From assembly GCA_964016885.1 (NCBI GenBank), contig OZ024744.1, forward strand, positions 71,300,001 through 71,364,000: a stretch of DNA of 64,000 bases, in the 5' to 3' direction. How positions within the stretch are numbered: position 1 is the stretch's first letter; each line of letters starts with the position of its first letter. This document shows positions 29,451 through 64,000 of the stretch, in pieces. This DNA comes from Eledone cirrhosa. Taxonomy: Eukaryota. The notes beneath the pieces were generated by a model. The model did not search any database and was not told where the DNA came from. It was given only the letters and a program-made list of their open reading frames with translations. The translations under genes and the position numbers were made by a program.

Positions 29451-30330
29451 TTATTACCTCCAGGCCCCTTGTCATTCTGAGTTCAAATCGCGCCGAGGTT
29501 AACTTTGCCTTTCATCCTTACGGGGTCGATAAAATAAAGTACCAGTAATGTACTGGGTAATTGCTGGCCTTGTGCCAAAAGTAGAAACAATTATTACCTC
29601 CAGGTCAACTTTGCCTTTCATCCTTACGGGGTCGGTAAAATAAAATACCAGTAATGTACTGAGTAATTGCTGGCCTTGTGCCAAAAGTAGAAACAATTAT
29701 TACCTCCAGCGGTGGATTGGCAGTATCGGTAGAGGGTCGGACGCCATGCTTTCCAGCATAGAGTTACGGCCCTTGCCACTCTGAGTTCAAATCCCGTCAA
29801 GGTTAACTTTGCCTTTCATCTTTACGGGGTCGATAAAATAAAGTACCAGTAATGCACTGTATTAATTGTCGGCCTTGTGCCAAAAGTAGAAACAATTATT
29901 ACCTCCCTTGGATTGGCAGTATCGGTAGAGGGTCTGCCGCCATGCTTTGCAACAAAGAGTTACGACCCTTTATGGTCTGAGTTCAAATCCCGCCGAGGTT
30001 AACTTTGCCTTTCATGCTTACGGGGTCGATAAAATAAAGCACCAGTCATACAATAGGATATTTGCTGGCCTTGTGCCAAATGTTAAACAATTATTATCTC
30101 CCTTACTGATGGATTAGCAGAGTCGTTAAAGGGTTGGACAAATGCTTAGCAGTATTTATTCTGATTCTTTATATTCTGAGTTCCACCCCTACCGAGGTTA
30201 GCTTTGCCTCTTACCCTTATGGGATTGACAAAATAAACTATCAGTAACGCACAACCTTAGATTTAATCGATTTTCCCTCCCTCAAATTGTTGGCCTTATG
30301 CCTAAATGAGAAATTATTATTATCTCCCTT
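29451..30330 (+). mobile_element. Five head-to-tail copies of the tRNA-derived SINE
   Basis: Copies start near 29464, 29604, 29710, 29910 and 30105, bounded by ATTATTACCTCC or ATTATTATCTCC. Confidence 0.9.
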
Positions 30331-36760: not shown

Positions 36761-37323
36761 GTATATATATACATTTATTTAACTCCGTGTTAGAACAGGA
36801 ATCGGCCTCAACATTATGAGGTACAGATATCTGTGAAATATTGAGCCACTTGGACGTTAATTTAATGAGCTGAACGTTCAGTTAAGGAAACAACTGTAAC
36901 GCTCATCTTTGAAACTGATGGAGGTTCATCTATTATTCTTTAATGTGGTTGATGATAATGAAATTTACATTGTTCAAATTCCACTAGTGTCAGGTTTGCT
37001 TTTCATTCACATCGATTGATAAATTAAACAATCAAGTATTGGTTTCAATGAAAGAGAGAGATATATAGATAAATAAATAAATAGATAGATTTCTTTATTA
37101 GCCACAAGGGCGCAACAAGAAAGGGGACAATACAAAGACATGCTGGGGATTTTACATACAGTCGTGTAAAAAATATAAAAACAAACAATTTCAACAATCG
37201 AAATCCCCAATAGGGGGGAGGCGCCACAAATGGGTTGTTTAATACCCCGTCGATAGAACAACCCTCAACTCCAGGAGCGTGTTGTGCAAGTGCTCCTTTC
37301 TTCCTTTTGCTCTCTTCCTCAAC

Positions 37324-40300
37324 CTACAGGCTTATAAACAGAGAAGGCCCAATCACTCGGGCCATTTTCGCTTCATTCACCCACCTTTCAGTAAATTTAC
37401 TGGGGTGCAGTGCCTCTCTCTCCACCCCGATTCTCCTTCTAAAGTGATACTTAAAGAAGGGAATCAATTGTTGTCCGGAGAGAAAGGCATCTGTCCTCAG
37501 TCCTCTCAAACTCGTCCACCATATAACTTCTTTCACCATAGCCACCGTACAGAGGAAAACCGCCTCTCTTTCGTTTTTGAAAGAGTCTGGCGGTTTGATC
37601 CTTACTATGGACTCGGCAGTCAACTGGATTTGTCCCATACGCGACAGCAGTTGTTCTGCATAGTTCCACAGGTCGCTTACGCCCGGGCAGTGTACAATTG
37701 CGTGCAGAACTGTTTCAATGTCCTGCGCACATCTTGGACACGTCCTCTTGGAAGGATCCCTGACAGGGCGTCCGTGCCTGTAGATCTTGTCACGAACCGG
37801 TAGAGCTCCTCGGTAGCACTGCCAGGCCAGGGACCTCTGGAAGTTGTCCATAGGTCCCGGGCGGAAAGTCCTACCAAACATACTGGTGAGCTCATCGTCT
37901 TCAACGCCCAGAGTCTCTCTGAGCACGTCGTCGCCCTTGTAACGTACAATCCCTCTATAGAATGTCGAAGTGGAGTCTCCACTGATTGCTGCGCCCGCTT
38001 GCCAGAGGACTGTGAGCGCCTAAGCGCATTCAATGTGCCAGGCGCCCATCGTTTTCGGTCTTTTCTTCACCCAGGACTGCAGCTCCGTTAGCGAGACGAG
38101 CTGTGGGAAAGCCTGTCTCACAAACGGTGCCCACAACGGTTGGGGGTCGGTGAGGAATACCTGGAGATGCCGCAGCCTCAGCGCATGTTTGCGCATCATC
38201 AGCCACGGCATTCCCAGCCCTCCGTTGGAAGGGTGCTGACAGCAGACGGATCTCCTCACCAGCGGAGCCTGCTTCTTCCACAGAAACTGGAAGAGCATGC
38301 GTTCCATCTTGGCGAGGTGTTCACGGGGACAAGGCACGACAGTCAAGCGGTAGTAGATGACGGACCCTATGAAAGTGTTCGCCACCTCCGCTCGACCTTT
38401 CAAGGACAGTTTGCACTCTGCCCACTTCTGAGTGAGTGCAAACACCTTGGCTGTGACCTCGTTCCAGTTTTTCTCCACCTGGAGGTCTGGACCGAACCAG
38501 ACCCCGAGCAATTTCACCGGTCCGTCCGTCCAGCGTCCAACGACGCTGTCGGATGTCATCGGTTTGCCTCTCCGCGTAGCGAGTTGCAAACCGACAGACT
38601 TGTCTGGGTTTAGTTTTGCTCCCGTCAGCGTTTCGTATTCTTTCAGTAAGTTGCCGATCACCCCGATTTCCGAGGTGCTCGATACCATTACCGTTACGTC
38701 GTCGGAATAAGCCGACGCCGCTTTGCGCAGTCCCGGTTCTAGGGGGATGCCCTGCAACAGCTCCAATTTCCGCAGTAGTGGCTCTAGAGTCAATACATAC
38801 AGAATGGAGGAGAGAGGGCATCCCTGTCGAATGGAACGCGTGATTGCGAACAGCTCCGATAGGTAGCCGTTCACCTTGACCCACGAGCAGATGCTGGTGT
38901 GCATCGCCTCGATCCATCTTCTGAACACGGGACCGAAACCGGCCGCCTTGAGAACCGCTTCCAAGTATCGATGGTCGACCCTATCGAATGCCTTAGACTG
39001 ATCCAAGTTGATCAGAGCCCCACCGAAGCCGGGTTTACTACCCACCCTCTCTATGATGTATCGCATGAGGTGGAGGTTGTCGTCTATGGACCTGGTCGGG
39101 ATTGCACACGTTTGCGCTTTCCCTACCAGGTTCTCGACGACAAGCGCCAGCCTCGTCGCTAGCACCTTGGCCAAAATCTTTAACTCTGTGTTGAGCAGAG
39201 TTATGGGCCTAAAGTTGCTTAGTTCTTCCTCCTTGTTCTCGTCTTTCCTGATCAGCGTTACTACGCCCTTGCCTGCAGAACTGGGAATTCTCCCGTTCTG
39301 CTGCCAATTGCAGTAGACGGCTTCGAGGACGCCAGAGAACAAGTCCGGCATGCCTATGTAAAATTCGTAGGTTAGACCATCTAGACCGGGTGACTTGCGT
39401 TCCCGCAGCGGCCCAGAGCGTCCCGTATCTCAGTGTCCGTGATCGGTCTTTCGCAGAACTCGGCGTCCATGTTCGAGAGACGCGGCAGGCCGTCGAGGTA
39501 TGAACTAAAGTCAATTGCCCCGTTCGGCTCACCGTCGTTCTGCTCAAACAGTCGCGCAAAGTGCTGCTGAAAGGCCGCGCACATTTGCTTGGGGTCAAGT
39601 AGCACGCGTCCGTTTTGGTCTTTCAAAGACCGAATCGTGGACTTGTTGCCACTTTTTGCCTCCGCCACTCGGGCCCAGCTGACAGCTTTCGCCCCTTCGT
39701 TTCCTAGAGCACGTGTTTTGCTTCTGACCACGCAGCCTTCGTGTTTCGCATCGAAGAACTGGTCCAGTGTCGTTCTCGACGCTAACACTCTAGCCGCGTT
39801 GCCACTTCTAAGTGCCTCCTCTACCTTGGCTACTAGTTCTCTTTCTATTCTGTTTTCCTCTAAGGCTAACTCTCTGCTATACCCTATGGGTTCTATTCTA
39901 ATTGCTTTCTTGAGAGAGTACCACCATCTATTGTTGACGCTGGCTCCCGTTAACTGTTGTTTGACTAGTCTACTTATCCGTTCACTGTAAGCTTTACGTG
40001 CCGGCAACGACACGTTCAGCTTCCAGTATCCGGGACCCTGTCTATGTATTCTATCACGGTTGACTAAGCAGACGACTAACTTGTGATCTGAATAGGCAAC
40101 CATGTGCATTCGTGGACAGCTTAACATCTCCTTGTCCCTTTCTCTAATGAAGAACCTATCTAAATACGATCTAGATGTCCCACTGCGGTTTGCCCACGTC
40201 CACTGTGGTGCAGTCGGGAAATCCAGTCGATACCTATCGGCCAGTTGGAATTGGCCGATTAAAGTTTTGAGGCTGTTGCACCCCGCTCTACTGGGACATG

Positions 40301-40769
40301 CTCCCACATAGTCCCATCGTGCATCTAGGATACCATTCTAGTCCCCCACTAAAAGTAAGGAGCGAGACGTTCCCAGAAAAGACTCTAGACGCTTAAAGAA
40401 GTCTGGCCGTGATTGCGATTGCCCGGTCGGGGCATAAACGGCCACCAGTCTGAAGGCTCCACCTCCGATACTGTTCACGTCTAGGACTACCAGTCTACCC
40501 TCCGGGTCCAAGTCTACTTGCTGTACTCCGACGTCCAGGTTCTTCCGAAACATAACAGCCACTCCACCTCCACCTCCTGTCTGACAGAGAGATGCGTAGA
40601 TCTCAAAGTCGTCGAAGATGGGGGTTAGTTGCTGCCTGTTGTGGATCCTGCACTCGGTGATGGCTATCACATCCATACTATGTGACCTAAGGTCGTTTAA
40701 AAGTTGGCCCTGTTTCCAGGGCATCCCTAGGCCACGCACATTCACGGTTCCAACTCGTAAACCAGCCAT
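37324..40769 (-). pseudogene. ORF2 of copy A: APE endonuclease + reverse transcriptase + zf-RVT (stop at 40338, frameshifts near 39380 and 38020)
   Basis: GTVNVRGL, LLLVGD*N, SYLDRF, SDHK (APE); NFRPITLLN, LDQSKAFDRV, IRQGCPLS, YSDD (RT); CPRC..ETVLHAIVHC. Confidence 0.95.
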
Positions 40770-42628
40770 GTTGGTGAAGAAAAGTTGGAGAAAAAGGACG
40801 AAAGGTGCACTTGGGTTGGGTGGGGAAACCTTTCAACAGGACGCGGTTGATGGGTTTGTGGCAGGGGTTGCCCACGTCCTGTGAAAATTTAATGTTTAGG
40901 TCTTTATAGGTTTCCATAGAAACCCTTATAAGTTTAAGGTGTGGAGACGATTCTGCCTTGACGAAAGTTTTGCCCTCCGTCTCCACCTTGGAGTTTTGGG
41001 AGATGACCTCCATCAAACTTTTGTTGTTTGTGTTGATGTATGCGTATTGTTGTTTGTGTTTTTGTTGTGTTGTTTTAGTTTGTTGTTCATCCGGGAGTTT
41101 TCTTTTTATGGTGGGTGCTTGTGTTTGGGGTGGTGTTGGTGCTGGTTTTGCTGATAGGGGGATGTTTGACTGTGGTGTTGTTTGTGTTGTTGTTTGTGTC
41201 TGTGGTTGTGTGTTGGTGTTGGTGATTGGAGTTTTGGGGGTTTTGTGGTGTTTCTTTTTTTGCTTTTTAGATTTCCGCGGTTCTCTCTCTTCTTCTCTTA
41301 AAGAAGGAGAAGCAGCTTCATCCGTCGATGAATTATCATCGTCAGGTGTGTGGGGTAAGGGTATGTTGTGTGGTGGTGGTGTTTCGGTGTCTGTGTTTGT
41401 GGTAGTGTTTGATGGAGTGGGATGGAGTGGGGATGTGTTCTTCAGGGGTGTTGTCTCTGTTTTTTCTGTTGTTGTTGGTTGAGTGTCTGTTTGTTTTGGT
41501 GTGGTTGCTCGTTTCGTCTGTCATTGTACTTGTGGTGGTGGTGGTTGTTTTGGTGTTGGTGTTGGTAATAGCGTTTTTTTTATGATGTTGTTGTTGTGTG
41601 TTTGTGGACAAGAGGCTTTTAGGTGAGCTGTACTACCACAGCGAAAGCAATGAAATTTTCGTCCTTCTACCGAAATGTTTATTTTGTTGTTATTATCAAT
41701 AACGACTCTTTCGGGTATTTTGGAGATTCTCTCCGGTTTCATTTGCAACAGAATCTCCAAATCTGTGCCCGCCCACCTTTGTCGAATAGATTTTCGTATC
41801 GAAAGTATTATGTCTGTTTCTAGCTCAACGAAGCCAGCCAAGATCCACCAGATGTTAATGCTTGGAGGTATGTTTTTTATTTTTATTTTTGTGTCCTTTT
41901 CCCCATGTATGTAGGGAAAAAGGTGTATGCTTTTGACACTATTGGTGTCACAGAGTTTTTTTGGGCGAGTGCCTCGCTTTTAAACAGTACGGAAACACTG
42001 GAGAAAATCGACATTTCCTAGAATTTCCTTGAAAGAATCTTCTATATCTGCTTGATTAACAAATTTCGGCTTTCTTGACGAATTTGACACAGTCCTAAAA
42101 GTGACTGATCGGCGGTTTGTGTCTTCCTTTATTTCAAGGAGTGAGTTAATTCTAAACCCACCTCTTTCTTCGAAAGTTACAAATTTTCTCCCTTGCTGGA
42201 GCATATCTCTTGCGTTGGAGATATCAAGATTTATAAAATCTTGTTTCTTGTTCACTGTGTCAGCAAAAGACATTTTCTTTTTTTGTGTGGTTTTGCTGTT
42301 GATGATGTTGTTATCGTTATTGGAAATTTCCGTTCCTTGTCGAGGTGAAACTTTATGTGTAGATGTATCTGTAGAGTTGTTGATGTCTTTTTCATGTGTA
42401 TGTATGTCAATGGGTTTTTTTTACTGTGTTTTCCTGTGTGTTATTGTCATTTTTCTCCGCTTCGGCGGTAGAAATTGTAAAATTTTCAAATGTTAATATA
42501 TTTGTTTCTTTTGTGACAGTTGTATCTATGGCGACTTCCATAGTAGCAGAAGCAGATATAACGTTAATATCTGCCTCTTTCTCTCTCTTTTCTCTATTAA
42601 CGTTCTCCAGCGTTCTAGTGTTGCTCAA
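40770..42628 (-). pseudogene. ORF1 (gag-like) of copy A, frameshifted
   Basis: Fragments 42407-42628, 41980-42273, 41521-41841 (CFRCGSTAHLKASC knuckle) and 40687-41016 are collinear with ORF1 of copy B. Confidence 0.85.
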
Positions 42629-42826
42629 GTTTTTTACTTTGTAAAATCTGATATTTTAAAACAAATTTTTAAAATAAAATTTTCGCCCCTACAGGGGCGA
42701 AAAATGGGATTACCACCCCGCTGACAATTCAGCTTGGGGGTTAATCTACAAAGTGTTGTATTTTTTCAAACAATTAGATCGGTTTTTTGCATAGAAATTA
42801 ACAAAAAACTTACCGGCGATGTTTCA

Positions 42827-45341
42827 CCCGGATGGGGCATATGCGGCCACCAGCCTGAAGGCTCCACCTTCACTACCGTCAACGTCTAAGACCACCAGTC
42901 GACCCTCTGGGTCCAGATGTACCGTCTGTGTTACGAGGCCCAGGTGTTTCCGCAGCAAAACGGCAACTCCACCCCCACCCCCCGGTTGACAAAGAGATGC
43001 GTAGATCTCAAAGTCATCGAAAATGGGGGCCAGCTGTCGCTCTCTGTGGATCCTGGACTTGCAAATGGCTACCACATCCATACTGTGCGACCTGAGGTCG
43101 TTTAAGAGTTTGCCCTGTTTCCAGGGCATCCCCAGGCCGCGTACGTTCACACATCCAACTCTTATATTGGCCATGTTGGTGCTGAAAATTTAAAAGAGGA
43201 TAAAGAGATCACTCACCCTTCGTCTCCTGGAGACCAGGCCGCACGATTTACATGGGGGTGTTGGAGGGATTGTCTGGATGGGTGGTGGTTTCCGGCGGGG
43301 TGGGGGCGGAGATGTTTGGTGGGGTGGGGTCTGGTGGGATGGAGGTGTCTGGGGTGGGGAGACATTTGAGAAGGACGCGGTTAAGTGGTTTCACGCAGGA
43401 ATTCCTCACATCCTTCTCAAATGTTTCTTTTAGGGACCTATAAGTTTGTATAGGGACCCTAATCAGTTTTAGGTTCAGTTTCTTTGTTATTTTTAATAGA
43501 GTGGGCGAAAGTTTTCCCTTCGGTTTTCACCGAAGGGTCGTTCGTGATGGTCTCCATTGGTGTTTTGTTTTGAGTGTTTATGTAAGTGTAAGTGTAATTT
43601 TCTTGTGTTGTGTTTGTTTTTGTCTGTAGTTCTTGTGTGTGCTTTCGTTTTGTTGTAGGTATTTTGTTTTCAGGAGGTGGGGGTTTTGTTTGTGAAGTTT
43701 TTGTTGTTTGTGTTGGTGGTTGTATGTTTGTGGTAGTGTTTGCTGGTTTTTTGCTTTTGTGATGTTTTTTCTTTCTTTTCGAGCGATGGGGTTCTCCCTC
43801 GTCTTCACTGGGTGATGGCGAGATAGCCTCATCTGTTGTATCGTCTGTGTGATTGGGGAGGGGTATGTCTTAGGGAGCTGTTGTGTCTGTATGTGATTTT
43901 GCAGTGGTTTTAGGTGGAGTGGGGTTGGGTGGGACTGTGTTTGTTGTGGTTATTTTTGTGTGTTGGTGTTGTTGTGGTGGTGTTGGTGGTTGTGTTGTTT
44001 TGATGGGTGTCGGCAGAAGAGCCTTTTTTTGATTCATTAATTTAGGACAGGAAGCCCTCAGGTGACCCCTGCTAAAGCAATGGTAACATGAAGGCCGCCT
44101 ACCCTCAACCGAAAAGTTTATGTAGGTGAGTCCGTCCAAGAGTACACGTTGTGGGATCATAGCTATTCGCTCTGGGCTCATTTGCACCAGAACTTCAATG
44201 GTAGTCCCATTGAATACATCTCTGGGGGACTTTCCTACTGACAGTATTCTGTCTTCATCAAAATTGATGAAGCCGCACAGTATCCACCATATGTTCACCT
44301 TTGGCGTGACATTCGTGATTTTGATCTTTTGTGTCCTTTTTCCCATGTATGTAGGGAAAAAGATGTACAGGTTGGATACAATTGGCGACACAGAGTAATT
44401 TTGGGCCGTCAATTGATCCTTCATGAGTACCGAAATACTCCCAAAAAGTTTGCTTCTTTGAATGAATGCAATATCATTCATTGAAATTTTGAAAACCAGT
44501 TTAATTTCTTTCTGTGATAATTGGACTGGTTTTCGGGTAGAATTGGAAACTGTCCTAAAAACTATCGTTTTGAGAGCAGTTTCCTTGCGAATTTCTACCG
44601 GAGAATTGATGCTGAAAGCACCATTTTTATCGAAAGTGACATATCTCCTAGCGTCCTTTAAAAGTTGTTCAGCATTTGTTATGTCGAGATATATCAGTTC
44701 CTCCTTTTTCTGAACTGTCTGTGCAAAGGAGATTTTGGTTCCTTTGTGGAATTATCCGTGTTGGCGGTGTTGTCATTATTGTTGTTATTGTTGTTGTTAT
44801 TCTTGTTGTCACCGATGTTGATATTATTCGTATTTTCCTTGGTGTTGTTGTTGTCTTTGATGCTGGTGTTATTGGTGTTGTCTTTATTTTTTTCTTTGTT
44901 GTTGTTATCATTGTTGTTTTTATCATCATTATTGGTGTTGCTGTTATTTTTGTTGTCATTGAACTGTTTGGTGTCATTTATGTTGTTTGGATATGAATTT
45001 GTTTTTACATTTTCATTTCGTCTTTCCATCTCTATAGTATCTAGGGAAGAAGACGATGTTGACTGCAAGCTTTGTAGTCTCACCAACTCTCCACCACCAT
45101 TATCGTTGGCCGCAGCGTTCATAACGTAATGAAACTTTTACAATATTTTTTCCAAAATTCGATGGAGAAAAAATTTTCCAAACGGATATATCGCCCCTGT
45201 AGGGGCGAAAATGAGTTGATCCACCACCTAAAGGTCCAGACGGGGGGGTCAAGTTACACAATAATATGAAATTTAACTGAAAACTCACGTTATTTTCTTA
45301 CATAAATTAACGGAAACTTCTCCGCGAAGTTACACACGTCT
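42827..45341 (-). mobile_element. Tx1/L1 copy B' (3'-truncated: 5'UTR, ORF1 and first ~115 aa of ORF2)
   Basis: ORF1 45122-43210 with CYHCFSRGHLRASC. ORF2 MANIRVGCVNVRGL starts at 43174 and breaks at AYAPSG, abutting the head of copy A. Confidence 0.92.
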
Positions 45342-45498
45342 GATAGAGAGATAGATATATTTCTTTATTAGCCACAGAGGCACAAAAGAAGGGGACAAAT
45401 ACAAATGGGGAAGTTTACATACAATAAAAAACGTGTAAAATGTTATCACAAATGCAATTTAAAAAGTTAGTCGATTTTCCGCAATAGGGGGAGACAGT

Positions 45499-48400
45499 TT
45501 ATATGGGCAACACATACCCCCGAAAAAAATGTGCAACCCTCATCTCCAGGAGTACGAAGAGTTGTTGGCCGAAGAGAAAGGTGTCTGACCTCAGCCCTTT
45601 CAACCTTGTCCACCATACAACCTCTTTCGCCATAGCTATCACACAAAGGAAAATCGCCTCTCCTTCGTTTTTGAAGGAGGGTGGCGGTTTGATCATGACA
45701 ATGGACTCTGTGGTCAACCGGATTGGTCCCACCCGCGACAATAGTCGTTCTACATAGCCCCACAGGTCAGTGACTCCCGGGCAGTGTATGAATGCGTGCG
45801 CGACGGTTTCTTCGTCTCGCACGCACCTCGGACAGATCTTTTTTGCAGGGTCCCTGCCGGGCGCCCATGTCTGTAGAACTTGTCTCGAACTGGTAGAGCT
45901 CCTCGGTAGCACTGCCAGGCCAGGGACTTTTGGAAGTTGGCCATCGGTCCCGGGCGGAAGGTCCTACTGAACAGACTGGCCAGTTCATCTTCCTCTACGC
46001 CTAGAGTTTCACCGAGCGCGTCGTCGCACATGCTGCGGATCAACCCTCTATAGAATGACGAAGTGGAGTCTCCACTGATCGCCGGGTCCGCCTGCCAGAG
46101 GGCTGTGAGCGCCTGAGCACATTCGATGTGCCAGTAGCCCATTTTCCTCGGTCTTTGCTTGACCCAGGACTGCAGCTCGGTCAGCGAGACGAGTCGTGGG
46201 AAGGCTCGCCTCACGAACGGGGCCCACACCGGTTGTCCGGTGAGGAATACGTAGAGATGCCGCAGCCTGAGCGCGTATTTGCGCATCGTCAACCACGGCA
46301 TCCCCAGCCCTCCGTTAGAAGGGTGTTGGCAGTAGATGGATCTTCTCACCAAAGGAGCTCGCCTCTTCCAAAGAAATCGGAAGAGCGCGCGCTCCTTTTT
46401 GACGAGTGTTTTGGCTGGACAAGGCACGACGGTCAAGCGGTAGTAGATGGCGGACGCTATAAAAGTGTTCGCCACCTCCGCTCGACCTTTCAAGGATAGT
46501 TTGCACTCGGCCCACTTCTGGGTGAGTGCAAACACCTTGGCCGTCACCTCGTTCCAGTTCTTCTCCACCTGGAGGTTCGGACCAAACCAGAACCCGAGTA
46601 GCTTTACCGGTCCTTCCGTCCAGCGTCCGACGACGCCATAGGAAAGCATCGGTTTGCCTCTCCACGATCCGAGTTGCAAACCGATGGACTTGTCCCGGTT
46701 CAGCTTCGCTCCTGTGACACTTTCGTATTCCTTCACTAAGGTGCCGACTTCCTCGATTTGCGAGGCGCTCGACACCATTACTGTCACGTCGTCGGCGTAG
46801 GCCGACGTCGCTTTCCGCAGTCCCGGTTCCAGAGGGATGCCCTGCAATAGCTCCAGCTTCCGCAGTAGTGGCTCGAGAGTCAGTACGTACAGAAGGGAGG
46901 AGACAGGGCATCCCTGTCGAATGGATCGCGTAATATGAAACAGCTCCGAGAGGTAACCGTTCACCTTGACCCTTGAGCAGATGTTGCTGTTGTGCATTGC
47001 AGCAATCCAACCCTGAACAAGGGTCCGAAGCCTGCCGCCTCGAGCACCGCATCCAGGTAACGATGGTCAACCCTATCGAAAGCCTTTGACTGATCCAAGT
47101 TGATCAAGGCCCCACCGAAGTCGGGTTTACACCCTACCCTCTCTATGATGTATCGCATGAGGTGGAGGTTGTCGTTTATGGATCTAGTCGGGATTGCGCA
47201 TGTCTGCGTTTCTCCCAGCAGGTTCTCGACGACAAGCGCCAGCCTCTTTGCCAACACCTTGGCCAAAATCTGTAACTCTGTGTTTAGCAGAGTTATGGGC
47301 CGGAAGTTGCCTACGTATTCCCCCTTATTCTCGTCCTTCCTGATTAGTGTAACCACGCCCCCGGTTACAGAACTGGGAATTCTCCCGTTCTGTTGCCAGT
47401 TGCAGTAGACCGCTTCCAGGAGACCGGAGAATAAGTCCGGCATTGCTACGTAAAATTCGTAGGGTAGCCCGTCGAGACCTGGAGATTTGCGTTTGCCGCA
47501 TTGGCTCAGCGCGTCCCCTATCTCAGCTGCTGAAATCGGCTTTTGGCAGAAATTTGCCTCGCTGTCCGAGAGTCGCGGTAGGCCGTCGAGGTATGGACCG
47601 AAATCCATAGCCTCTCCCGGCACGCCGCCCCTCCCGAACAGTTGAGCATAGTGCCACCAAATAGCCGCACACATCTGCTTCGGCTCACGTATCACGCGTC
47701 CGTTTTGGTCCTTCAAAGACCGAATCGTGGACTTGTTGCCACTTTTTGCCTCCGTCACTCGGGCCCAGCTAACAGCTTTGGCTCCCTCGTTTCCCAGAGC
47801 ACGTATTTTGCTTCTGACAACGCAGCCCTCGTGCTTTGCGTCGAAGAACTGGTCCAAGGCCGTTCTCGTTGATAGCACGCTGGCTACGTTGCCACTTCTA
47901 ATTGCCTCTTCTACTTTATCTACCAGTTCCTTCTCGGTTCTATTTCTATCTAACGCTAATTCTTTACTAAAAAACTATCGAGTCTAATCTAACTGCCCTC
48001 TTGAGAGAGTACCACCATCTGTTGTTGACAATGGCCCCTGTCAAGTGCTGTTTAACTAAAGTGCTAATCCGTCTACTGTAGGCTTTGCTTGTCGGTAACG
48101 ACAAGTTCAGCTTCCAGTAGCCGGGTCCTTGTCTATGGGTTCTATCAAGGTTGGCCATGCAGGTCACTAGTTTGTGATCTGAATAGGCAACCATGAACAT
48201 TTGTGGACAGCTTAACATGTCCCTATCCTTATTTCTAACTAGAACCCTATCTAGGTACGATCTAGATGTTCCGCTACGATTACTCCACGTCCACAGTGAC
48301 GCAGTCGGAAAATCTAGTCGATATCTATCGGCCAGGTCAAATCGGTCGATTAACTGTTTGAGGCTGTTACACCCCCCTTTATCGGGACATGCTCCCACAT

Positions 48401-48855
48401 AGTCCCAACGTGCATCTAGGATTCCATTCCAGTCCCCCACTAAAAGCAAGGAGCGGGACGTTCCCTGAAAAGTCTCCAGACGTTTGAAGAAGTCTGGCCG
48501 CGGTGTCCCGGATGGGGCATATGCGGCCACCAGCCTGAACGCTCCACCTTCACTACCGTCAACGTCTAGGACCACCAGTCGACCCTCCGGGTCCAGATGT
48601 ACCGTCTGTGTTACGAGGCCCAGGTGTTTCCGCAGCAAAACGGCAACTCTGCCCCCCACCCCCCGGTTGACAGAGAGATGCGTAGATCTCAAACTCATCG
48701 AAGATGGGGGCCAGCTGTCGCTCGCCGTGGATCCTGGACTCGCAAATGGCTACCACATCCAAACTGTGCGACCTGAGGTCGTTTAAGAGTTTGCCCTGTT
48801 TCCAGGGCATCCCCAGGCCGCGTACGTTCACACATCCAACTCTTATATTGGCCAT
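45499..48855 (-). pseudogene. ORF2 of copy B (APE + RT + CCHC), several frameshifts
   Basis: LVGDWNG, SDHK, KSPGLDGLPYEFY, LDQSKAFDRV, RQGCP, YADD, CPRC..HAFIHC. Confidence 0.93.
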
Positions 48856-48888
48856 GTTGGTGCTGAAAAGTTAAAAGAGGAAAAGAGA

Positions 48889-50797: not shown

Positions 50798-50863
50798 AAC
50801 GTAATCAAAATTTTACAATATGTTTTCCAAGATTCGATGGAGAAAAATTTTTTAAATGGATAT

Positions 50864-50926
50864 TCCGCCCCTGAAGGGGCGAAAATGAGTTGACCCACCA
50901 CCTGAAGGTCCAGACGGGTGGTCAAG
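50864..50926 (-). promoter_or_regulatory. Conserved double stem-loop in the Tx1 5'UTR (also 42680-42746, 45191-45253, 55614-55677, 60098-60161)
   Basis: TTGACC...GGTCAA hairpin followed by TTCGCCCCT-NN-AGGGGCG(A/G)A. The central two bases vary between copies while the stem is kept. Confidence 0.7.
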
Positions 50927-51014
50927 TTACACAATGATATAAAATTGAACTAAAAACTCACGTTTTTTTCTTACATAAATTAACGGAAACTTCTCCGCGA
51001 AGTGACACACGACT

Positions 51015-51279
51015 GATAGATATATTTCTTTATTAGCCACAGGGGCACAAAAGAAGGGGACAAATACAAAGGGGGAAGTTTACATACAATAAAAACGTGT
51101 AAAATGTTATCACAGATGGAATTTAAAAGTTAGTCGATTTTCCCCAATAGAGGGAGACAGTTTATATGGGTAACACATACCCCCGAAAAAAATGTGCAAC
51201 CCTCATCTCCAGGAGTACGAAGAGCTTGTACTCCTTTCCTCTCCTCCTCCTTTTCCTCAATCTACAGGCTGACACGACT
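51015..51279 (-). mobile_element. Severely 5'-truncated Tx1 copy (3'UTR only, ~250 bp) with target-site duplication
   Basis: Matches 51280-51548. Flanked by the direct repeat ACACGACTGATAGATA at 51007-51022 and 51272-51287. Confidence 0.85.
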
Positions 51280-54200: not shown

Positions 54201-55764
54201 GGCTTTGCTTGTCGGTAACGACAAGTTCAGCTTCCAGTAGCCGGGTACTTGTCTATGGGTTCTATCAAGGTTGGCCATGCAGGTCACTAGTTTGTGATCT
54301 GAATAGGCAACCATGAACATTTGTGGACAGTTTAACATGTCCCTATCTTATTTCTAACTAGAACCCTATCTAGGTACGATCTAGATGTTCCGCTACGATT
54401 ACTCCACGTCCACAGTGGCGCAGTCGGAAAATCTAGTCGATATCTATCGGCCAGGTCAAATCGGTCGATTAACTGTTTGAGGCTGTTACACCCCCCTTTA
54501 TCGGGACATGCTCCCACATAGTCCCAACGTGCATCTAGGATTCCATTCCAGTCCCACACTAAAAGCAAGGAGCGGGACGTTCCCAGAAAAGTCTCTAGAC
54601 GTTTGAAGAAGTCTGGCCGCGGTGTCCCGGATGGGGCATATGCGGCCACCAGCCTGAAGGCTCCACCTTCTCTACCGCCAACGTCTAGGACCACCAGTCG
54701 ACCCTCCGGGTCCAGATGTACCGTCTGTGTTACGAGGCCCAGGTGTTTCCGCAGCAAAACGGCAACTCCGCCCCCACCCATCCGGTTAACAGAGAGATGC
54801 GTAGATCTCAAAGTCATCGAAGATGGGGGCCAGCTGTCACTCGCTCTACATCCTGGACTTGAAAATGGCTACCACATCCATACTGTGCGACCTGAGGTCG
54901 TTTAAGAGTTTGCCCTGTTTCCAGGGCATCCCCAGGCCGCGTACGTTCACACATCCAACTCTTATATTGGCCATGTTGGTGCTGAATAGTTTTGAGAGCA
55001 GTTTCCTTGCGAATTTCTACTGGAGAATTGATGCTGAAAGCACCATTTTTTTCGAAAGTGACATATCTCCTAGCGTCCTTTAAAAGTTGTTCAGCATTTG
55101 TTATGTCGAGATATGTCAGTTTCTCCTTTTTCTGAACTGTCTGTGCAAAGGGGATTTTGGTTTCTTTGTGGAATTATCTGTGTTGGTGTTGTCATTATTG
55201 TTGTTATTGTTGTTGTTATTCTTGTTGTCACCGATGTTGATATTATTCGTATTTTCCTTGGTGTTGTTGTTGTCTTTGATGCTGGTGTTATTGGTGCTGT
55301 CTTTATTTTTTTCTTTGTTGTTATCATTGTTGTTTTTATCATCATTATTGGTGTTGCTGTTATTTTTGTTGTCATTGAACTGTTTGGTGTCAATTGTGTT
55401 GTTTGGATATGAATTTGTTTTTACATTTTCATTTCGTCTTTCCATCTCTATTGTATCTATTGAGAAGGAAAGGGAAGACGATGTTGACTGCGAGCTTTGT
55501 AGTCTTACCGCCTCTCCACCACCATTATCGTTGAACGCAGCGTTCATAACGTAATCAAACTTTTACAATATTTTTTCCAAGATTCGATGTAGAAAAAGTT
55601 TTCAAAGGAATATTTCGCCCCTGCAGGGGCGAAAATGAGTTGACCCACCATCTGAAGGTCCAGACGGGTGGTCAAGTTACACAATGATATAAAATTTAAC
55701 TGAAAACTCACGTTTTTTTCTTACACAAAATAACGGAAACTTCTCCGCGAAGTTACACACGTCT
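51280..55764 (-). mobile_element. Tx1/L1 copy C (ORF1 internally deleted)
   Basis: ORF2 54974-51539 including the 709-aa piece 54001-51872. ORF1 starts at 55547 and is joined at ~54986 to the ORF2 leader. Confidence 0.93.
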
Positions 55765-58700
55765 GATAGAGAGAGATAGATATATTTCTTTATCAGCCAC
55801 AGGGGCACAAAAGAAGGGGGCAAATACAAAGGGGGAAGTTTACATACAATAAAAACGTGTAAAATGTTATCACAAATGCAATTTATAAAGTTAGTCGATT
55901 TTCCCCAATATAGGGAGACAGTTTATATGGGTAACACATACCCCCGAAAAAAAATGTGCAACCCTCATCTCCAGGAGTACGAAGAGTTTGTACTCCTTTC
56001 CTCTCCTCCTCCTTTTCCTCAACCTACAGGCTGATATAGAGAGAAGGCCCATTCACTCGGGCCATTCTCGCCACTTTCACTCACCTTTCATAAAACTTGC
56101 TGGGGTACAGCACCTCCCACTCCATCCTGATTCTTCTTCCAAAGTGGTATTTGAAAAAAAGAATCAGTTGTTGGCTGAAGAGAAAGGTGTGTGACCTCAG
56201 CCCTTTCAACCTTGTCCACCATACAACCTCTTTCGCCATAGCTATCACACAAAGGAAAACCGCCTCTCCCTCGTTTTTGAAGGAGAGTGGCGGTTTGATC
56301 ATGACCATGGACTCGGTGGTCAACCGGATTGGTCCCATCCGCGACAATAGTCGTTCTACATAGCCCCACAGGTCAGTGACGCCCGGGCAGTGTATGAATG
56401 CGTGCGCGACGGTTTCTTCGTCTCGCACGCACCTCGGACAGATCTTTTTTGCAGGGTCCCTGCCCAGGCGCACATGTCTCTAGAGCTTGTCTCGAACTGG
56501 TAGAGTTCCTCGGTAGCACTGCCAGGCCAGGGACTTTTGGAAGTTGTCAATCGGTCCCGGGCGGAAGGTCCTACCGAACAGACTGGCCAGTTCATCTTCC
56601 TCTACGCCTAGAGTTTCACCGAGCGCGTCGTCGCACTTGCTGCGGATCAACCCTCTACAGAATGACGAAGTGGAGTCTCCACTGATCGCCGGGTCCGCCT
56701 GCCAGAAGGCTGTGAGCGCCTGAGCACATTCGATGTGCCAGTCGCCCATTTTCCTCGGTCTTTGCTTGACCCAGGCCTGCAGCTCGGTCAGCGAGACGAG
56801 TCGTGGGAAGGCTCGCCTCACGAACGGGGCCCACACCGGTTGTCCGGTGAGGAATACGTAGAGATGCCGCAGCCTGAGCGCGTGTTTGCGCATCGTCAAC
56901 CACGGCATCCCAGCCCTCCATTAGAAGGGTGTTGGCAGCAGATGGATCTTCTCACCAAATGATCCCGCCTCTTCCAGAGGAATTGGAAGAGCGCGCGCTC
57001 CTTTTTGACGAGTGTTTTGGCTGGACAAGGCACGACGGTCAAGCGGTAGTAGATGGCGGACGCTATAAAAGTGTTCGCCACCTCCGCTCGACTTTTCAAG
57101 GATAGTTTGCACTTGGCCCACTTCTGGGTGAGTGCAAACACCTTGGCCGTCACTTCGTTCCAGTTCTTCTCCACCTGGAGGTCTGGACAAAACCAGACCC
57201 CGAGTAGTTTTACCGGTCCTTCCGTCCAGCGTCCAACGACGCCATCAGAAGGGATCGGTTTGCTTCTCCACGATCCGAGTTGCAAACCGATATACTTGTC
57301 CCGGTTCAGCTTCGCTCCTGTGAAACTTTCGTATTCCTTCAGTAAGGTGCCGACTTCCTCGATTTGCGAGGCGCTCGACACCATTAATGAAACGTCGTCG
57401 GCGTAGGCCGACGCCGCTTTCCGCAGTCCCGGTTCCAGAGGGATGCCCTGCAATAGCTCCAACTTCCGCAGTAGTGGCTCGAGAGTCAGTACATACAGAA
57501 GGGAGGAGAGAGGGCATCCCTGTCGAATGAATCGCGTAATATGGAACGGCTCCGAGAGGTAGCCGTTCACCTTGACCCTTGAGCAGATTCTGCTGTTGTT
57601 CATTGCAGCAATCCAGCCTCTGAACACGAGTCCGAAGCCTGCCGCCTCGACCACCGCATCCAGGTAACGATGGTCAACCCTATCGAAAGCCTTAGACTGA
57701 TCCAAGTTGATCAGGGCCCCACCGAAGCCGGATTTACACCCTACCCTCTCTATGATGTATCGCATGAGGTGGAGGTTGTCGTGTATGGACCTGGTCGGGA
57801 TTGCGCATGTCTGCGCTTCTCCCAGCAGGTTCTCGACGACAAGCGCCAGCCTCTTTACCAACACCTTGGCTAAAATCTGTAACTCTGTGTTTAGCAGAGT
57901 TACGGGCCGGAAGTTGCCTATGTCATCCCCCTTATTCTCGTCCTTCCTGATTAGTGAGACTACGCCCCCGGCTACAGAACTGGGAATTCTCCCGTTCTGT
58001 TGCCAGTTGCAGTAGACCGCTTCCAGGAGACCGGAGAATAAGTCCGGCATTGCTACGTAAAATTCGTAGGGTAGACCGTCGAGACCTGGAGATTTGCGTT
58101 TGCCGCATTGGCTCAGCGGGTCCCCTATCTCAGCGGCTGAAATCGGCCTTTCGCAGAACTTTGCCTTACTGTCCGAGAGTTGCAGTAGGCCATCGAGGTA
58201 TGGACCGAAATCTATAGCCCTTCCAGGCGCGCTGACCCTCCCGAAGAGTTGAGCAAAGTGCCGCTGAAAGGCTGCACACATCTGCTTCGGCTCACGTGTC
58301 ACGCCTCCGTTTTGGTCCTTCAAAGACCGAATCGTGGACTTGTTGCCACTTTTTGCCTCCGTCACTTGGGCCCACCTAACAGCTTTGGCTCCCTCGTTTC
58401 CCAGAGCACGTATTTTGCTTCTGACAACGCAGCCCTCGTGCTTTGCGTCGAAGAACTGGTCCAAGGCCGTTCTCGTTGATAGCACGCTGGCTACGTTGCC
58501 ACTTCTAATTGCCTCTTCTACTTTATCTACCAGTTCCTTCTCGGTTCTATTTCTATCACGCTAATTCTTTACTAAAAACTATCGAGTCTAATCTAACTGC
58601 CCTCTTGAGAGAGTACCACCATCTGTTGTTGACAATGGCCCCTGTCAAGTGCTGTTTAACTAAAGTGCTAATCCGTCTACTGTAGGCTTTGCTTGTCGGT

Positions 58701-60248
58701 AACGACAAGTTCAGCTTCCAGTAGCCGGGTACTTGTCTATGGGTTCTATCAAGGTTGGCCATGCAGGTCACTAGTTTGTGATCTGAATAGGCAACCATGA
58801 ACATTTGTGGACAGTTTAACATGTCCCTATCTTATTTCTAACTAGAACCCTATCTAGGTACGATCTAGATGTTCCGCTACGATTACTCCACGTCCACAGT
58901 GGCGCAGTCGGAAAATCTAGTCGATATCTATCGGCCAGGTCAAATCGGTCGATTAACTGTTTGAGGCTGTTACACCCCCCTTTATCGGGACATGCTCCCA
59001 CATAGTCCCAACGTGCATCTAGGATTCCATTCCAGTCCCACACTAAAAGCAAGGAGCGGGACGTTCCCAGAAAAGTCTCTAGACGTTTGAAGAAGTCTGG
59101 CCGCGGTGTCCCGGATGGGGCATATGCGGCCACCAGCCTGAAGGCTCCACCTTCTCTACCGCCAACGTCTAGGACCACCAGTCGACCCTCCGGGTCCAGA
59201 TGTACCGTCTGTGTTACGAGGCCCAGGTGTTTCCGCAGCAAAACGGCAACTCCGCCCCCACCCATCCGGTTAACAGAGAGATGCGTAGATCTCAAAGTCA
59301 TCGAAGATGGGGGCCAGCTGTCACTCGCTCTACATCCTGGACTTGAAAATGGCTACCACATCCATACTGTGCGACCTGAGGTCGTTTAAGAGTTTGCCCT
59401 GTTTCCAGGGCATCCCCAGGCCGCGTACGTTCACACATCCAACTCTTATATTGGCCATGTTGGTGCTGAATAGTTTTGAGAGCAGTTTCCTTGCGAATTT
59501 CTACTGGAGAATTGATGCTGAAAGCACCATTTTTTTCGAAAGTGACATATCTCCTAGCGTCCTTTAAAAGTTGTTCAGCATTTGTTATGTCGAGATATGT
59601 CAGTTTCTCCTTTTTCTGAACTGTCTGTGCAAAGGGGATTTTGGTTTCTTTGTGGAATTATCTGTGTTGGTGTTGTCATTATTGTTGTTATTGTTGTTGT
59701 TATTCTTGTTGTCACCGATGTTGATATTATTCGTATTTTCCTTGGTGTTGTTGTTGTCTTTGATGCTGGTGTTATTGGTGCTGTCTTTATTTTTTTCTTT
59801 GTTGTTATCATTGTTGTTTTTATCATCATTATTGGTGTTGCTGTTATTTTTGTTGTCATTGAACTGTTTGGTGTCAATTGTGTTGTTTGGATATGAATTT
59901 GTTTTTACATTTTCATTTCGTCTTTCCATCTCTATTGTATCTATTGAGAAGGAAAGGGAAGACGATGTTGACTGCGAGCTTTGTAGTCTTACCGCCTCTC
60001 CACCACCATTATCGTTGAACGCAGCGTTCATAACGTAATCAAACTTTTACAATATTTTTTCCAAGATTCGATGTAGAAAAAGTTTTCAAAGGAATATTTC
60101 GCCCCTGCAGGGGCGAAAATGAGTTGACCCACCATCTGAAGGTCCAGACGGGTGGTCAAGTTACACAATGATATAAAATTTAACTGAAAACTCACGTTTT
60201 TTTCTTACACAAAATAACGGAAACTTCTCCGCGAAGTTACACACGTCT
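55765..60248 (-). mobile_element. Tx1/L1 copy D (ORF1-deleted, 4,484-bp unit)
   Basis: ORF2 59458-56024 with frameshifts and a stop; ORF1 stub from 60031; ORF coordinates offset 4,484 from copies C and E. Confidence 0.93.
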
Positions 60249-63200
60249 GATAGAGAGAGATAGATATATTTCTTTATCAGCCACAGGGGCACAAAAGAAG
60301 GGGGCAAATACAAAGGGGGAAGTTTACATACAATAAAAACGTGTAAAATGTTATCACAAATGCAATTTATAAAGTTAGTCGATTTTCCCCAATATAGGGA
60401 GACAGTTTATATGGGTAACACATACCCCCGAAAAAAAATGTGCAACCCTCATCTCCAGGAGTACGAAGAGTTTGTACTCCTTTCCTCTCCTCCTCCTTTT
60501 CCTCAACCTACAGGCTGATATAGAGAGAAGGCCCATTCACTCGGGCCATTCTCGCCACTTTCACTCACCTTTCATAAAACTTGCTGGGGTACAGCACCTC
60601 CCACTCCATCCTGATTCTTCTTCCAAAGTGGTATTTGAAAAAAAGAATCAGTTGTTGGCTGAAGAGAAAGGTGTGTGACCTCAGCCCTTTCAACCTTGTC
60701 CACCATACAACCTCTTTCGCCATAGCTATCACACAAAGGAAAACCGCCTCTCCCTCGTTTTTGAAGGAGAGTGGCGGTTTGATCATGACCATGGACTCGG
60801 TGGTCAACCGGATTGGTCCCATCCGCGACAATAGTCGTTCTACATAGCCCCACAGGTCAGTGACGCCCGGGCAGTGTATGAATGCGTGCGCGACGGTTTC
60901 TTCGTCTCGCACGCACCTCGGACAGATCTTTTTTGCAGGGTCCCTGCCCAGGCGCACATGTCTCTAGAGCTTGTCTCGAACTGGTAGAGTTCCTCGGTAG
61001 CACTGCCAGGCCAGGGACTTTTGGAAGTTGTCAATCGGTCCCGGGCGGAAGGTCCTACCGAACAGACTGGCCAGTTCATCTTCCTCTACGCCTAGAGTTT
61101 CACCGAGCGCGTCGTCGCACTTGCTGCGGATCAACCCTCTACAGAATGACGAAGTGGAGTCTCCACTGATCGCCGGGTCCGCCTGCCAGAAGGCTGTGAG
61201 CGCCTGAGCACATTCGATGTGCCAGTCGCCCATTTTCCTCGGTCTTTGCTTGACCCAGGCCTGCAGCTCGGTCAGCGAGACGAGTCGTGGGAAGGCTCGC
61301 CTCACGAACGGGGCCCACACCGGTTGTCCGGTGAGGAATACGTAGAGATGCCGCAGCCTGAGCGCGTGTTTGCGCATCGTCAACCACGGCATCCCAGCCC
61401 TCCATTAGAAGGGTGTTGGCAGCAGATGGATCTTCTCACCAAATGATCCCGCCTCTTCCAGAGGAATTGGAAGAGCGCGCGCTCCTTTTTGACGAGTGTT
61501 TTGGCTGGACAAGGCACGACGGTCAAGCGGTAGTAGATGGCGGACGCTATAAAAGTGTTCGCCACCTCCGCTCGACTTTTCAAGGATAGTTTGCACTTGG
61601 CCCACTTCTGGGTGAGTGCAAACACCTTGGCCGTCACTTCGTTCCAGTTCTTCTCCACCTGGAGGTCTGGACAAAACCAGACCCCGAGTAGTTTTACCGG
61701 TCCTTCCGTCCAGCGTCCAACGACGCCATCAGAAGGGATCGGTTTGCTTCTCCACGATCCGAGTTGCAAACCGATATACTTGTCCCGGTTCAGCTTCGCT
61801 CCTGTGAAACTTTCGTATTCCTTCAGTAAGGTGCCGACTTCCTCGATTTGCGAGGCGCTCGACACCATTAATGAAACGTCGTCGGCGTAGGCCGACGCCG
61901 CTTTCCGCAGTCCCGGTTCCAGAGGGATGCCCTGCAATAGCTCCAACTTCCGCAGTAGTGGCTCGAGAGTCAGTACATACAGAAGGGAGGAGAGAGGGCA
62001 TCCCTGTCGAATGAATCGCGTAATATGGAACGGCTCCGAGAGGTAGCCGTTCACCTTGACCCTTGAGCAGATTCTGCTGTTGTTCATTGCAGCAATCCAG
62101 CCTCTGAACACGAGTCCGAAGCCTGCCGCCTCGACCACCGCATCCAGGTAACGATGGTCAACCCTATCGAAAGCCTTAGACTGATCCAAGTTGATCAGGG
62201 CCCCACCGAAGCCGGATTTACACCCTACCCTCTCTATGATGTATCGCATGAGGTGGAGGTTGTCGTGTATGGACCTGGTCGGGATTGCGCATGTCTGCGC
62301 TTCTCCCAGCAGGTTCTCGACGACAAGCGCCAGCCTCTTTACCAACACCTTGGCTAAAATCTGTAACTCTGTGTTTAGCAGAGTTACGGGCCGGAAGTTG
62401 CCTATGTCATCCCCCTTATTCTCGTCCTTCCTGATTAGTGAGACTACGCCCCCGGCTACAGAACTGGGAATTCTCCCGTTCTGTTGCCAGTTGCAGTAGA
62501 CCGCTTCCAGGAGACCGGAGAATAAGTCCGGCATTGCTACGTAAAATTCGTAGGGTAGACCGTCGAGACCTGGAGATTTGCGTTTGCCGCATTGGCTCAG
62601 CGGGTCCCCTATCTCAGCGGCTGAAATCGGCCTTTCGCAGAACTTTGCCTTACTGTCCGAGAGTTGCAGTAGGCCATCGAGGTATGGACCGAAATCTATA
62701 GCCCTTCCAGGCGCGCTGACCCTCCCGAAGAGTTGAGCAAAGTGCCGCTGAAAGGCTGCACACATCTGCTTCGGCTCACGTGTCACGCCTCCGTTTTGGT
62801 CCTTCAAAGACCGAATCGTGGACTTGTTGCCACTTTTTGCCTCCGTCACTTGGGCCCACCTAACAGCTTTGGCTCCCTCGTTTCCCAGAGCACGTATTTT
62901 GCTTCTGACAACGCAGCCCTCGTGCTTTGCGTCGAAGAACTGGTCCAAGGCCGTTCTCGTTGATAGCACGCTGGCTACGTTGCCACTTCTAATTGCCTCT
63001 TCTACTTTATCTACCAGTTCCTTCTCGGTTCTATTTCTATCACGCTAATTCTTTACTAAAAACTATCGAGTCTAATCTAACTGCCCTCTTGAGAGAGTAC
63101 CACCATCTGTTGTTGACAATGGCCCCTGTCAAGTGCTGTTTAACTAAAGTGCTAATCCGTCTACTGTAGGCTTTGCTTGTCGGTAACGACAAGTTCAGCT

Positions 63201-64000
63201 TCCAGTAGCCGGGTACTTGTCTATGGGTTCTATCAAGGTTGGCCATGCAGGTCACTAGTTTGTGATCTGAATAGGCAACCATGAACATTTGTGGACAGTT
63301 TAACATGTCCCTATCTTATTTCTAACTAGAACCCTATCTAGGTACGATCTAGATGTTCCGCTACGATTACTCCACGTCCACAGTGGCGCAGTCGGAAAAT
63401 CTAGTCGATATCTATCGGCCAGGTCAAATCGGTCGATTAACTGTTTGAGGCTGTTACACCCCCCTTTATCGGGACATGCTCCCACATAGTCCCAACGTGC
63501 ATCTAGGATTCCATTCCAGTCCCACACTAAAAGCAAGGAGCGGGACGTTCCCAGAAAAGTCTCTAGACGTTTGAAGAAGTCTGGCCGCGGTGTCCCGGAT
63601 GGGGCATATGCGGCCACCAGCCTGAAGGCTCCACCTTCTCTACCGCCAACGTCTAGGACCACCAGTCGACCCTCCGGGTCCAGATGTACCGTCTGTGTTA
63701 CGAGGCCCAGGTGTTTCCGCAGCAAAACGGCAACTCCGCCCCCACCCATCCGGTTAACAGAGAGATGCGTAGATCTCAAAGTCATCGAAGATGGGGGCCA
63801 GCTGTCACTCGCTCTACATCCTGGACTTGAAAATGGCTACCACATCCATACTGTGCGACCTGAGGTCGTTTAAGAGTTTGCCCTGTTTCCAGGGCATCCC
63901 CAGGCCGCGTACGTTCACACATCCAACTCTTATATTGGCCATGTTGGTGCTGAATAGTTTTGAGAGCAGTTTCCTTGCGAATTTCTACTGGAGAATTGAT
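60249..64000 (-). mobile_element. Tx1/L1 copy E (ORF1-deleted, cut by window end)
   Basis: Translations identical to copy D at +4,484; ORF2 ATG at 63942 and the same deletion junction. Confidence 0.93.

What the first reader, a model, noticed from the sequence alone, without database searches (positions are those of the whole stretch)
37051..64000. At least 27 kb pure head-to-tail array of Tx1/L1 retrotransposons with a divergence gradient
Seen: six large units and one fragment, all minus strand, with no host DNA, SINEs or MITEs between them, although the left 37 kb is saturated with those. Intact junctions join a (TATC/TC)n tail straight to the next 5' end. The most divergent subfamily (A) sits at the array edge and the most homogeneous copies are distal. 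Known: Tx1-clade families are often sequence-specific (including microsatellite targets), and polarised LINE arrays occur in Drosophila HeT-A/TART, Giardia GilM/GilT and Chlorella Zepp. Inference: this is a self-propagating LINE array, possibly a structural domain (subtelomeric or centromeric) or a piRNA source.
Basis: partly seen in the sequence, partly recalled or inferred. Interest (0 to 1): 0.75.

Follow-up and report, generated by a model that had tools for sequence, protein, structure and literature searches.

The report
GATA-repeat LINE stack, not chromosome structure
This 33-kb mid-chromosome stack of dead jumping genes is one of many in the genome, and it likely formed because the element inserts into TATC (GATA) repeats and leaves such a repeat at both ends, after which one broken copy was likely tripled by misaligned recombination, so it is probably not a telomere- or centromere-like domain.

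Summary
The array is real: 37,051 to about 70,193 (33 kb, ending 6.2 kb right of the window), one strand, 99.6% element DNA, no SINE. The interpretation mostly fails. It lies at 71.3 Mb of a 136.5-Mb contig with ordinary host DNA on both sides, and arrays up to 30 kb occur elsewhere. There is no age gradient: subfamily A is a different lineage, not an older copy; the youngest insert is interior; the 'homogeneous' units are a local triplication of one dead, internally deleted copy with a single breakpoint inside the RT region. The element is an L1/Tx1-type LINE that inserts into (TATC)n (30 of 30 heads; 34 of 42 truncated copies). About two thirds of the genome's 37,960 perfect TATC runs already touch this superfamily, and young copies have family neighbours no more often (62%) than random choice of a run predicts (68%): stacking needs no self-recognition. 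Long reads, CENP-A and small RNA could not be checked.

The parts
37051..42825 (-). Unit A: near-full-length copy of sister subfamily A (about 81% identical to B in ORF2); 2 stops and a frameshift in ORF2; 5' tip lost; 3' tail runs into a degenerate TATC/TC tract and host DNA
42826..45342 (-). Unit U2: 5' half of a B copy (head, ORF1, first 116 codons of ORF2); its 3' part and tail were lost in a deletion that joins it to A
45343..51015 (-). Unit U3: near-full-length B copy with frameshifts and a ~190-bp deletion at 45,562
51023..51271 (-). Short 5'-truncated B copy (249 bp), the youngest unit (0 mismatches to two copies elsewhere), inserted into an interior junction
51007..51022 (-). 3' copy of a 16-bp duplication (two TATC units plus the first 8 bases of the next element's head) flanking the short copy
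51272..51287 (-). 5' copy of the same 16-bp duplication: likely the target-site duplication of the short copy
51288..55765 (-). Unit D1: dead B copy lacking ~1.38 kb of ORF1 (joint at 54,986); this joint occurs only three times in the genome, all in this array
53117..53144 (.). Breakpoint interval of the triplication, inside the RT coding region
   Evidence: near-identity at lag 4,484 runs from 53,117 to 62,112
55766..60249 (-). Unit D2: chimera with the 5' half of D1 and the 3' half of the array's last unit
60250..64000 (-). Unit D3: second chimera, identical to D2 over 6,947 bp of lagged comparison; continues to 64,733, followed by the last B unit (64,734 to ~70,193) and a host (TC)n(TA)n tract

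Best explanation
The array is a dead pile-up of L1/Tx1-type LINEs that sit in (TATC)n repeats; it likely grew by at least six separate insertions into one repeat tract and its daughters, and then likely by unequal crossing-over that tripled one broken copy. Shown: the element has ORF1 with a CCHC knuckle and ORF2 with APE endonuclease, RT and zinc finger; full-length and truncated copies lie behind TATC runs in one orientation; duplications of 14-20 bp cross the 3' edge of the run; each copy has a TATC run on both sides. Inferred: the endonuclease nicks within TATC runs, the RNA's 3' end primes there, and each insertion splits one target into two, so targets multiply where elements already sit and any junction of an array can be hit, with no polarity and no recognition of the element itself. 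Once two copies lie head to tail, misaligned exchange between their ORF2s makes a unit with the downstream copy's 5' half and the upstream copy's 3' half; D2 and D3 have exactly this make-up.
For: Target: 30 of 30 exact heads follow a TATC run; 44 of 53 scored copies picked by their 3' end, and 34 of 42 truncated ones, have TATC directly upstream, so the upstream run is not carried by the RNA's 5' end. Duplications crossing the run's 3' edge in 6 of 42 truncated copies against 0.17 in shuffled pairs (max 2), and in the window's short copy. Census: 37,960 perfect runs of 20 bp or more (the reversed-pattern controls sum to the same number); in 120 sampled runs a weighted 40% have a family tail upstream, 57% a family copy downstream, 68% either. 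Young B copies: 43%, 43% and 62% (23, 23, 33 of 53): no excess over random choice of a run. Adjacent 3' ends within 7.5 kb: 37 same strand, 2 opposite. Units differ in subfamily and in private deletions. Triplication: deletion joint only here; one breakpoint in a 28-bp interval; D2 and D3 share the last unit's frameshift at codon 851 and its two downstream stops, which D1's 3' half lacks. The same geometry appears at C1:212.95 Mb; a triplicated truncated unit at C3:10.1 Mb.
Against: Cleavage specificity was not assayed. Only 6 of 42 duplications are visible; 8 of 42 truncated copies have no TATC run upstream (three are deletion joints with another element, others look off-target). The census rests on the first 30 hits of each of four phases, all on C1, with some runs from one locus counted twice and a library built partly from the same loci, so the percentages are rough; downstream neighbours were somewhat fewer than predicted (43% against 57%). 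The array's own 5' flank is (TC)n(TA)n with a single TATC. The triplication is nearly exact and no long read was available, so an assembly error is not excluded. The short copy's 5' duplicate could also be read as a head joined to the 3' end by an internal deletion.
Confidence: 0.82

Rival explanations
1. The array is a polarised structural domain (subtelomeric or centromeric), grown from one edge like HeT-A/TART or Zepp arrays.
For: Pure, single-strand, head-to-tail, SINE-free for 33 kb. The position near the middle of the contig is compatible with a metacentric centromere.
Against: 65 Mb from either contig end; no (TTAGGG)3 in 124 kb; host DNA with SINEs resumes at 70.2 kb; no age gradient; six clusters of 4-7 3' ends in the first 19 Mb of C1 alone (one belongs to the satellite-targeting sister) and a 30-kb six-unit array at C1:212.95 Mb. 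The SINE copies are 71-97% identical to the query, mostly older than the units, which would explain their absence.
Confidence: 0.04
2. The element actively recognises its own copies (tail plus head junction), beyond the TATC run.
For: 15-16 of 30 heads follow a family tail; the window's short copy and one other (L032) duplicated the first bases of the next element's head.
Against: The neighbour rate equals or falls below the rate among all TATC runs; four other visible duplications end in host or microsatellite bases; 20 of 53 young copies have no family neighbour.
Confidence: 0.07
4. The triplication is an assembly artefact; the true array is about 24 kb.
For: D2 and D3 are identical over 6,947 bp; no laid piece spans the region.
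Against: Four differences separate the copies from their parents, and other arrays show the same mosaic with a few differences. This rival concerns the triplication only and is compatible with the insertion mechanism.
Confidence: 0.12
5. The array is kept as a piRNA source.
For: Single-strand stacks of several subfamilies would make a suitable antisense template (inference).
Against: Single-strand stacking follows from the target's orientation and is shared by many clusters, so it needs no selection.
Confidence: 0.1

Closest known systems
Kibi (TC)n, Koshi (TTC)n and crocodilian (TTCC)n/(TTTC)n Tx1 families (PMC4494074: passages and section 15 read; PMC3812793: passages read)
   Same: APE-type L1-group LINE that inserts into a pyrimidine-rich microsatellite. 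PMC4494074 also reports tandem SINEU-3 insertions sandwiching a target duplication, explained by sequential insertion.
   Different: Target here is (TATC)n, which is not among the targets listed in those passages; host is likely an octopod (recalled SINE resemblance, not tested); the superfamily touches about two thirds of all perfect target runs; kinship with Kibi/Koshi was not tested by a tree.
R1 tandem array and 'double insertion then unequal exchange' in Drosophila (bioRxiv 10.1101/158386, passages read)
   Same: Tandems seeded by repeated insertion at a preferred site, separated by target sequence, then expanded by unequal exchange; tail-to-internal junctions from 5'-truncated copies.
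   Different: The target is a dispersed microsatellite, so there are many small mixed-subfamily arrays instead of one large array in rDNA; expansion here added only two units.
HeT-A/TART/TAHRE, GilM/GilT and Zepp arrays (search listing and abstracts only; array properties recalled)
   Same: Single-orientation head-to-tail LINE arrays with truncated members.
   Different: Not at a chromosome end, no age polarity, interior junctions are hit, many dispersed arrays; no evidence of a host function.

Membership tests
L1 group of non-LTR retrotransposons | ORF2 with N-terminal APE endonuclease, RT and C-terminal zinc finger | tested here: met
   Intact copy L016: 1,145 aa, PF03372, PF00078, PF13966 all above cut-off; best solved relative human L1 ORF2p, E 3e-51, ahead of R2; the same domains in broken window units
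L1 group of non-LTR retrotransposons | 5' truncation and target-site duplications, no LTRs | tested here: met
   42 of 53 scored copies truncated; flank-crossing duplications in 6 of 42 against 0.17 by chance
Tx1 clade | ORF1 with CCHC knuckle rather than Transposase_22 | tested here: met
   C-X2-C-X4-H-X4-C is in the 638-aa ORF1; Pfam zf-CCHC only below cut-off (E 0.007-0.095) and absent for L016; no Transposase_22 hit. Criterion from PMC5203782 passages; plant L1s share it, so it is not unique to Tx1
Tx1 clade | Target preference (over 20% of flanks of one type, PMC4494074) | tested here: met
   30 of 30 heads and 44 of 53 copies behind TATC
Tx1 clade | RT phylogeny groups it with Xenopus Tx1L, Keno, Kibi, Koshi | not testable with these tools
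   No named animal Tx1 reference among 92 homologues; the closest 37 (37-71% identity) are unnamed
Telomeric LINE arrays (HeT-A/TART type) | At a chromosome end, youngest copies outermost | tested here: not met
   71.3 of 136.5 Mb, host DNA both sides, youngest unit interior
Centromeric LINE arrays (Zepp type) | Copies concentrated in one cluster per chromosome | tested here: not met
   First 100 of 2,409 exact 3' ends spread over 200 Mb of C1; clusters on many contigs
Centromeric LINE arrays (Zepp type) | CENP-A binding | not testable with these tools
   No chromatin data
piRNA cluster | Uniquely mapping piRNAs from the locus | not testable with these tools
   No small-RNA data could be laid
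R1-type tandem (double insertion, then unequal exchange) | Target sequence between units, and amplified units sharing private lesions | tested here: met
   TATC/TC tracts at 7 places; private deletion joint three times, single breakpoint

The most novel reading that the evidence does not exclude
Most long GATA microsatellites of this genome are made and multiplied by one Tx1 superfamily: each insertion doubles its own target, a runaway loop that builds hundreds of mixed-subfamily arrays, which then act as recombination nurseries producing chimeric LINEs and nascent 4-6 kb satellites, while sister lineages with 75-82% identical endonucleases have switched to (ATT)n or a ~70-bp tandem repeat.
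Probability: 0.4. Interest if true: 0.6.

Novelty: new variant of a known kind. Interest (0 to 1): 0.38.

Why it matters
It replaces a possible new chromosome domain with a simple, testable rule: a LINE whose target survives on both sides of every insertion stacks on itself at the rate set by the share of targets it already flanks. Intact copies differing by 2-17 substitutions in 5.8 kb exist, with sister endonucleases aimed at other repeats, which makes APE target choice directly testable. The array also catches both steps of satellite birth from a transposon (insertion-seeded tandem, then unequal exchange) with a breakpoint mapped to 28 bp. In practice, GATA microsatellite markers in this genome will often be flanked by a multicopy LINE.

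Tried and rejected
Age gradient: rejected. Telomere repeats: none in 124 kb. Internally deleted D unit as a mobile non-autonomous family: rejected, joint only in this array. A shared 5' truncation point in three loci suggested re-mobilised truncated copies: only 3 in the genome, and the two complete ones are no closer to each other (9 differences) than to intact copies (1-13), so no subfamily. First duplication count (28 of 42) came from a faulty rule for the end of the run and was discarded; one search replaces it. The alignment at the end failed on an empty row. The degenerate 3'-end pattern (23,939 hits) also catches sisters with other targets, so it is not a count of TATC-targeting copies. 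Sequencing runs: no RNA holder listed and no long reads; laying three contig sets and one RAD-seq run showed the family but no piece spanning the stretch: no verdict on the assembly. Kojima and Fujiwara 2004 is not held. Cluster look-up gave no useful names. Eight paper searches showed no report of a (TATC)n-targeting Tx1 in listings and the passages read; Repbase and subscription journals were not searchable, and supplements were not read, so the target may be on record. PMC13282606 (first third read) lists 13 recently active L1-Tx1 families in Octopus vulgaris without targets in that part. No structure prediction or complex job was run. No tRNA genes in the window.

Full report
What is in the sequence. 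Self-comparison shows large direct repeats from 37,051 rightwards, with APE endonuclease, RT and zf-RVT pieces on the minus strand and a weak CCHC in ORF1. The window lies at C28:71,300,001-71,364,000 of a 3.0-Gb genome; C28 is 136.5 Mb long. Sixty more kilobases to the right show that the array ends at extended coordinate ~70,193, behind a host (TC)n(TA)n tract, and that SINE-bearing host DNA follows. Copies from other loci cover 99.6% of the 33 kb, all on one strand; the only uncovered stretches are seven TATC/TC tracts. In element order the units are: last B unit (U8), D3, D2, D1, a 249-bp piece, U3, U2, A. The U2/A joint is a deletion without a tail. No unit has an intact ORF2.

The family. 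An exact 27-mer of the B 3' end occurs 2,409 times and an exact head 443 times, on both strands and, in the listed places, spread along C1 and C2; 40 near-identical ORF2 matches lie on at least ten contigs. Intact copies exist elsewhere (ORF1 638 aa, ORF2 1,145 aa), and seven full-length copies differ by 2-17 substitutions, so the family is young. ORF2 has all three Pfam domains above cut-off and its best solved relative is human L1 ORF2p. This makes it L1 group; Tx1 is supported by the CCHC ORF1 and the target preference but was not tested by a tree with named references. The host is likely an octopod; that rests on a recalled SINE resemblance and on earlier notes, not on a call.

The target. 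All 30 sampled heads follow a TATC run. Of 68 copies picked by their 3' end, 53 had both ends in view (14 ran off the locus, 1 gave no alignment): 44 of 53, and 34 of the 42 truncated ones, have TATC directly upstream. Truncated copies cannot have brought that run with them, so it is target. In 6 of 42 truncated copies the sequence before the 5' joint repeats the end of the downstream run plus 4-11 further bases (0.17 in shuffled pairs); the rest sit inside runs where a duplication cannot be seen, or lack a run. The window's short piece has such a duplication of 16 bp, ending in the first 8 bases of U3's head: it went into an existing tail-head junction. None of 68 tails has a poly(A) run of 8 or more within 40 bp. 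I infer that the RNA's 3' end primes on the GATA strand and that every insertion leaves a run on each side.

Why copies stack. Among the first 100 3' ends of the wider superfamily on C1, 51 have a same-strand neighbour within 7.5 kb (3.9 expected); adjacent pairs are 37 same-strand to 2 opposite. To see whether this needs self-recognition I counted perfect TATC runs of 20 bp or more in all four phases: 17,144 + 10,227 + 7,014 + 3,575 = 37,960. In 120 sampled runs, 41 have a family tail upstream, 70 a family copy downstream, 80 either; weighted by phase 40%, 57%, 68%. A copy landing in a random run inherits those neighbours. Observed for young B copies: 43%, 43%, 62%. So the tandem share is what random choice among runs gives, and both sides are hit equally. 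The sample is from C1 only, holds some runs from the same locus, and uses a library partly built from these loci; the numbers are rough.

No gradient. A is 81% identical to B because it is another subfamily; its nearest fully aligned outside copy differs by 3.0%, like U2 (3.2%) and D1 (3.2%). The distal units are the most diverged (3.5-3.7%) and the interior ones the youngest (2.0% and 0%). The apparent homogeneity is a duplication: 53,117-62,112 matches the sequence 4,484 bp further right with 4 differences in 8,996 bp, that is two extra units plus 28 bp, so both extra units share one breakpoint inside the RT region. D2 and D3 have D1's 5' half with its ORF1 deletion, a joint found three times in the genome, all here, and U8's 3' half with its frameshift and stops. 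This is the product expected from misaligned exchange between two adjacent copies, repeated once. At C1:212.95 Mb one unit likewise has the 3' half of its upstream and the 5' half of its downstream neighbour; at C3:10.1 Mb a truncated unit is tripled at 99.8%. An assembly error cannot be excluded without long reads.

Not a chromosome domain. The array is 65 Mb from either contig end, has no telomere repeats nearby, and is matched by a six-unit 30-kb array at C1:212.95 Mb and several mixed clusters in the first 19 Mb of C1. CENP-A and piRNA remain untested.

Relation to what is known. Microsatellite-targeting Tx1 families are known: Kibi, Koshi and crocodilian families (PMC4494074, passages and section 15; PMC3812793, passages). 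Tandems by repeated insertion followed by unequal exchange are described for R1 and other Drosophila elements (10.1101/158386, passages). I found no (TATC)n-targeting family in eight searches, with the limits given above. Earlier notes of this scan describe the same family, target and stacking on other DNA of this genome; I had reached that reading before looking, and the notes are not independent support. One note suggested RNA-mediated chimeras for a sister family; the D units fit a DNA-level event better.

Verdict. A real array, a new target variant of a known kind of element, built by two known processes; the structural reading and the gradient fail. Interest 0.38.

Noticed in passing
G000:C1:4.22-4.26 Mb (L141-L144); also L111, L113, L136: A sister subfamily (endonuclease 82% identical to B; one 1,145-aa ORF2 and a 580-aa ORF1 in L144) sits six times in a ~70-bp AT-rich tandem repeat at the same position; copies 99% alike.
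   Followed up: partly
L112, L132 (G000:C1:1.47 and 4.44 Mb): Sister 3' ends followed by (ATT)n instead of (TATC)n.
   Followed up: no
G000:C1:3.98, 18.01 and 19.47 Mb (L254-L256): The only three B copies in the genome truncated at the same base behind a TATC run all lie within 16 Mb of C1, each behind a different subfamily's tail; they share no closer kinship, and one keeps only 505 bp. Unexplained.
   Followed up: partly
L051-L080: About half of full-length B heads have a short (TC)n between the TATC run and the head, and A heads have a similar TC-rich lead, as if the transcript began in the upstream repeat.
   Followed up: no
extended coordinates 83,270-89,075 (L002-L003): A solitary full-length copy of another subfamily, same strand, between TATC runs, 13 kb right of the array.
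   Followed up: partly
window 26,892-27,310 and 28,459-29,213: Old Tx1-like ORF2 fragments, 66-70% identical to the array, in opposite orientations to each other.
   Followed up: no
window 25-116, 5,946-6,266, 13,378-13,567: Three short arrays of a related 48-bp minisatellite.
   Followed up: no
window 29,496-30,250: Tandem SINE-derived units of 106 and 196 bp.
   Followed up: no
L059, L061: Two B heads sit in TATC runs behind the same unidentified repeat end.
   Followed up: no
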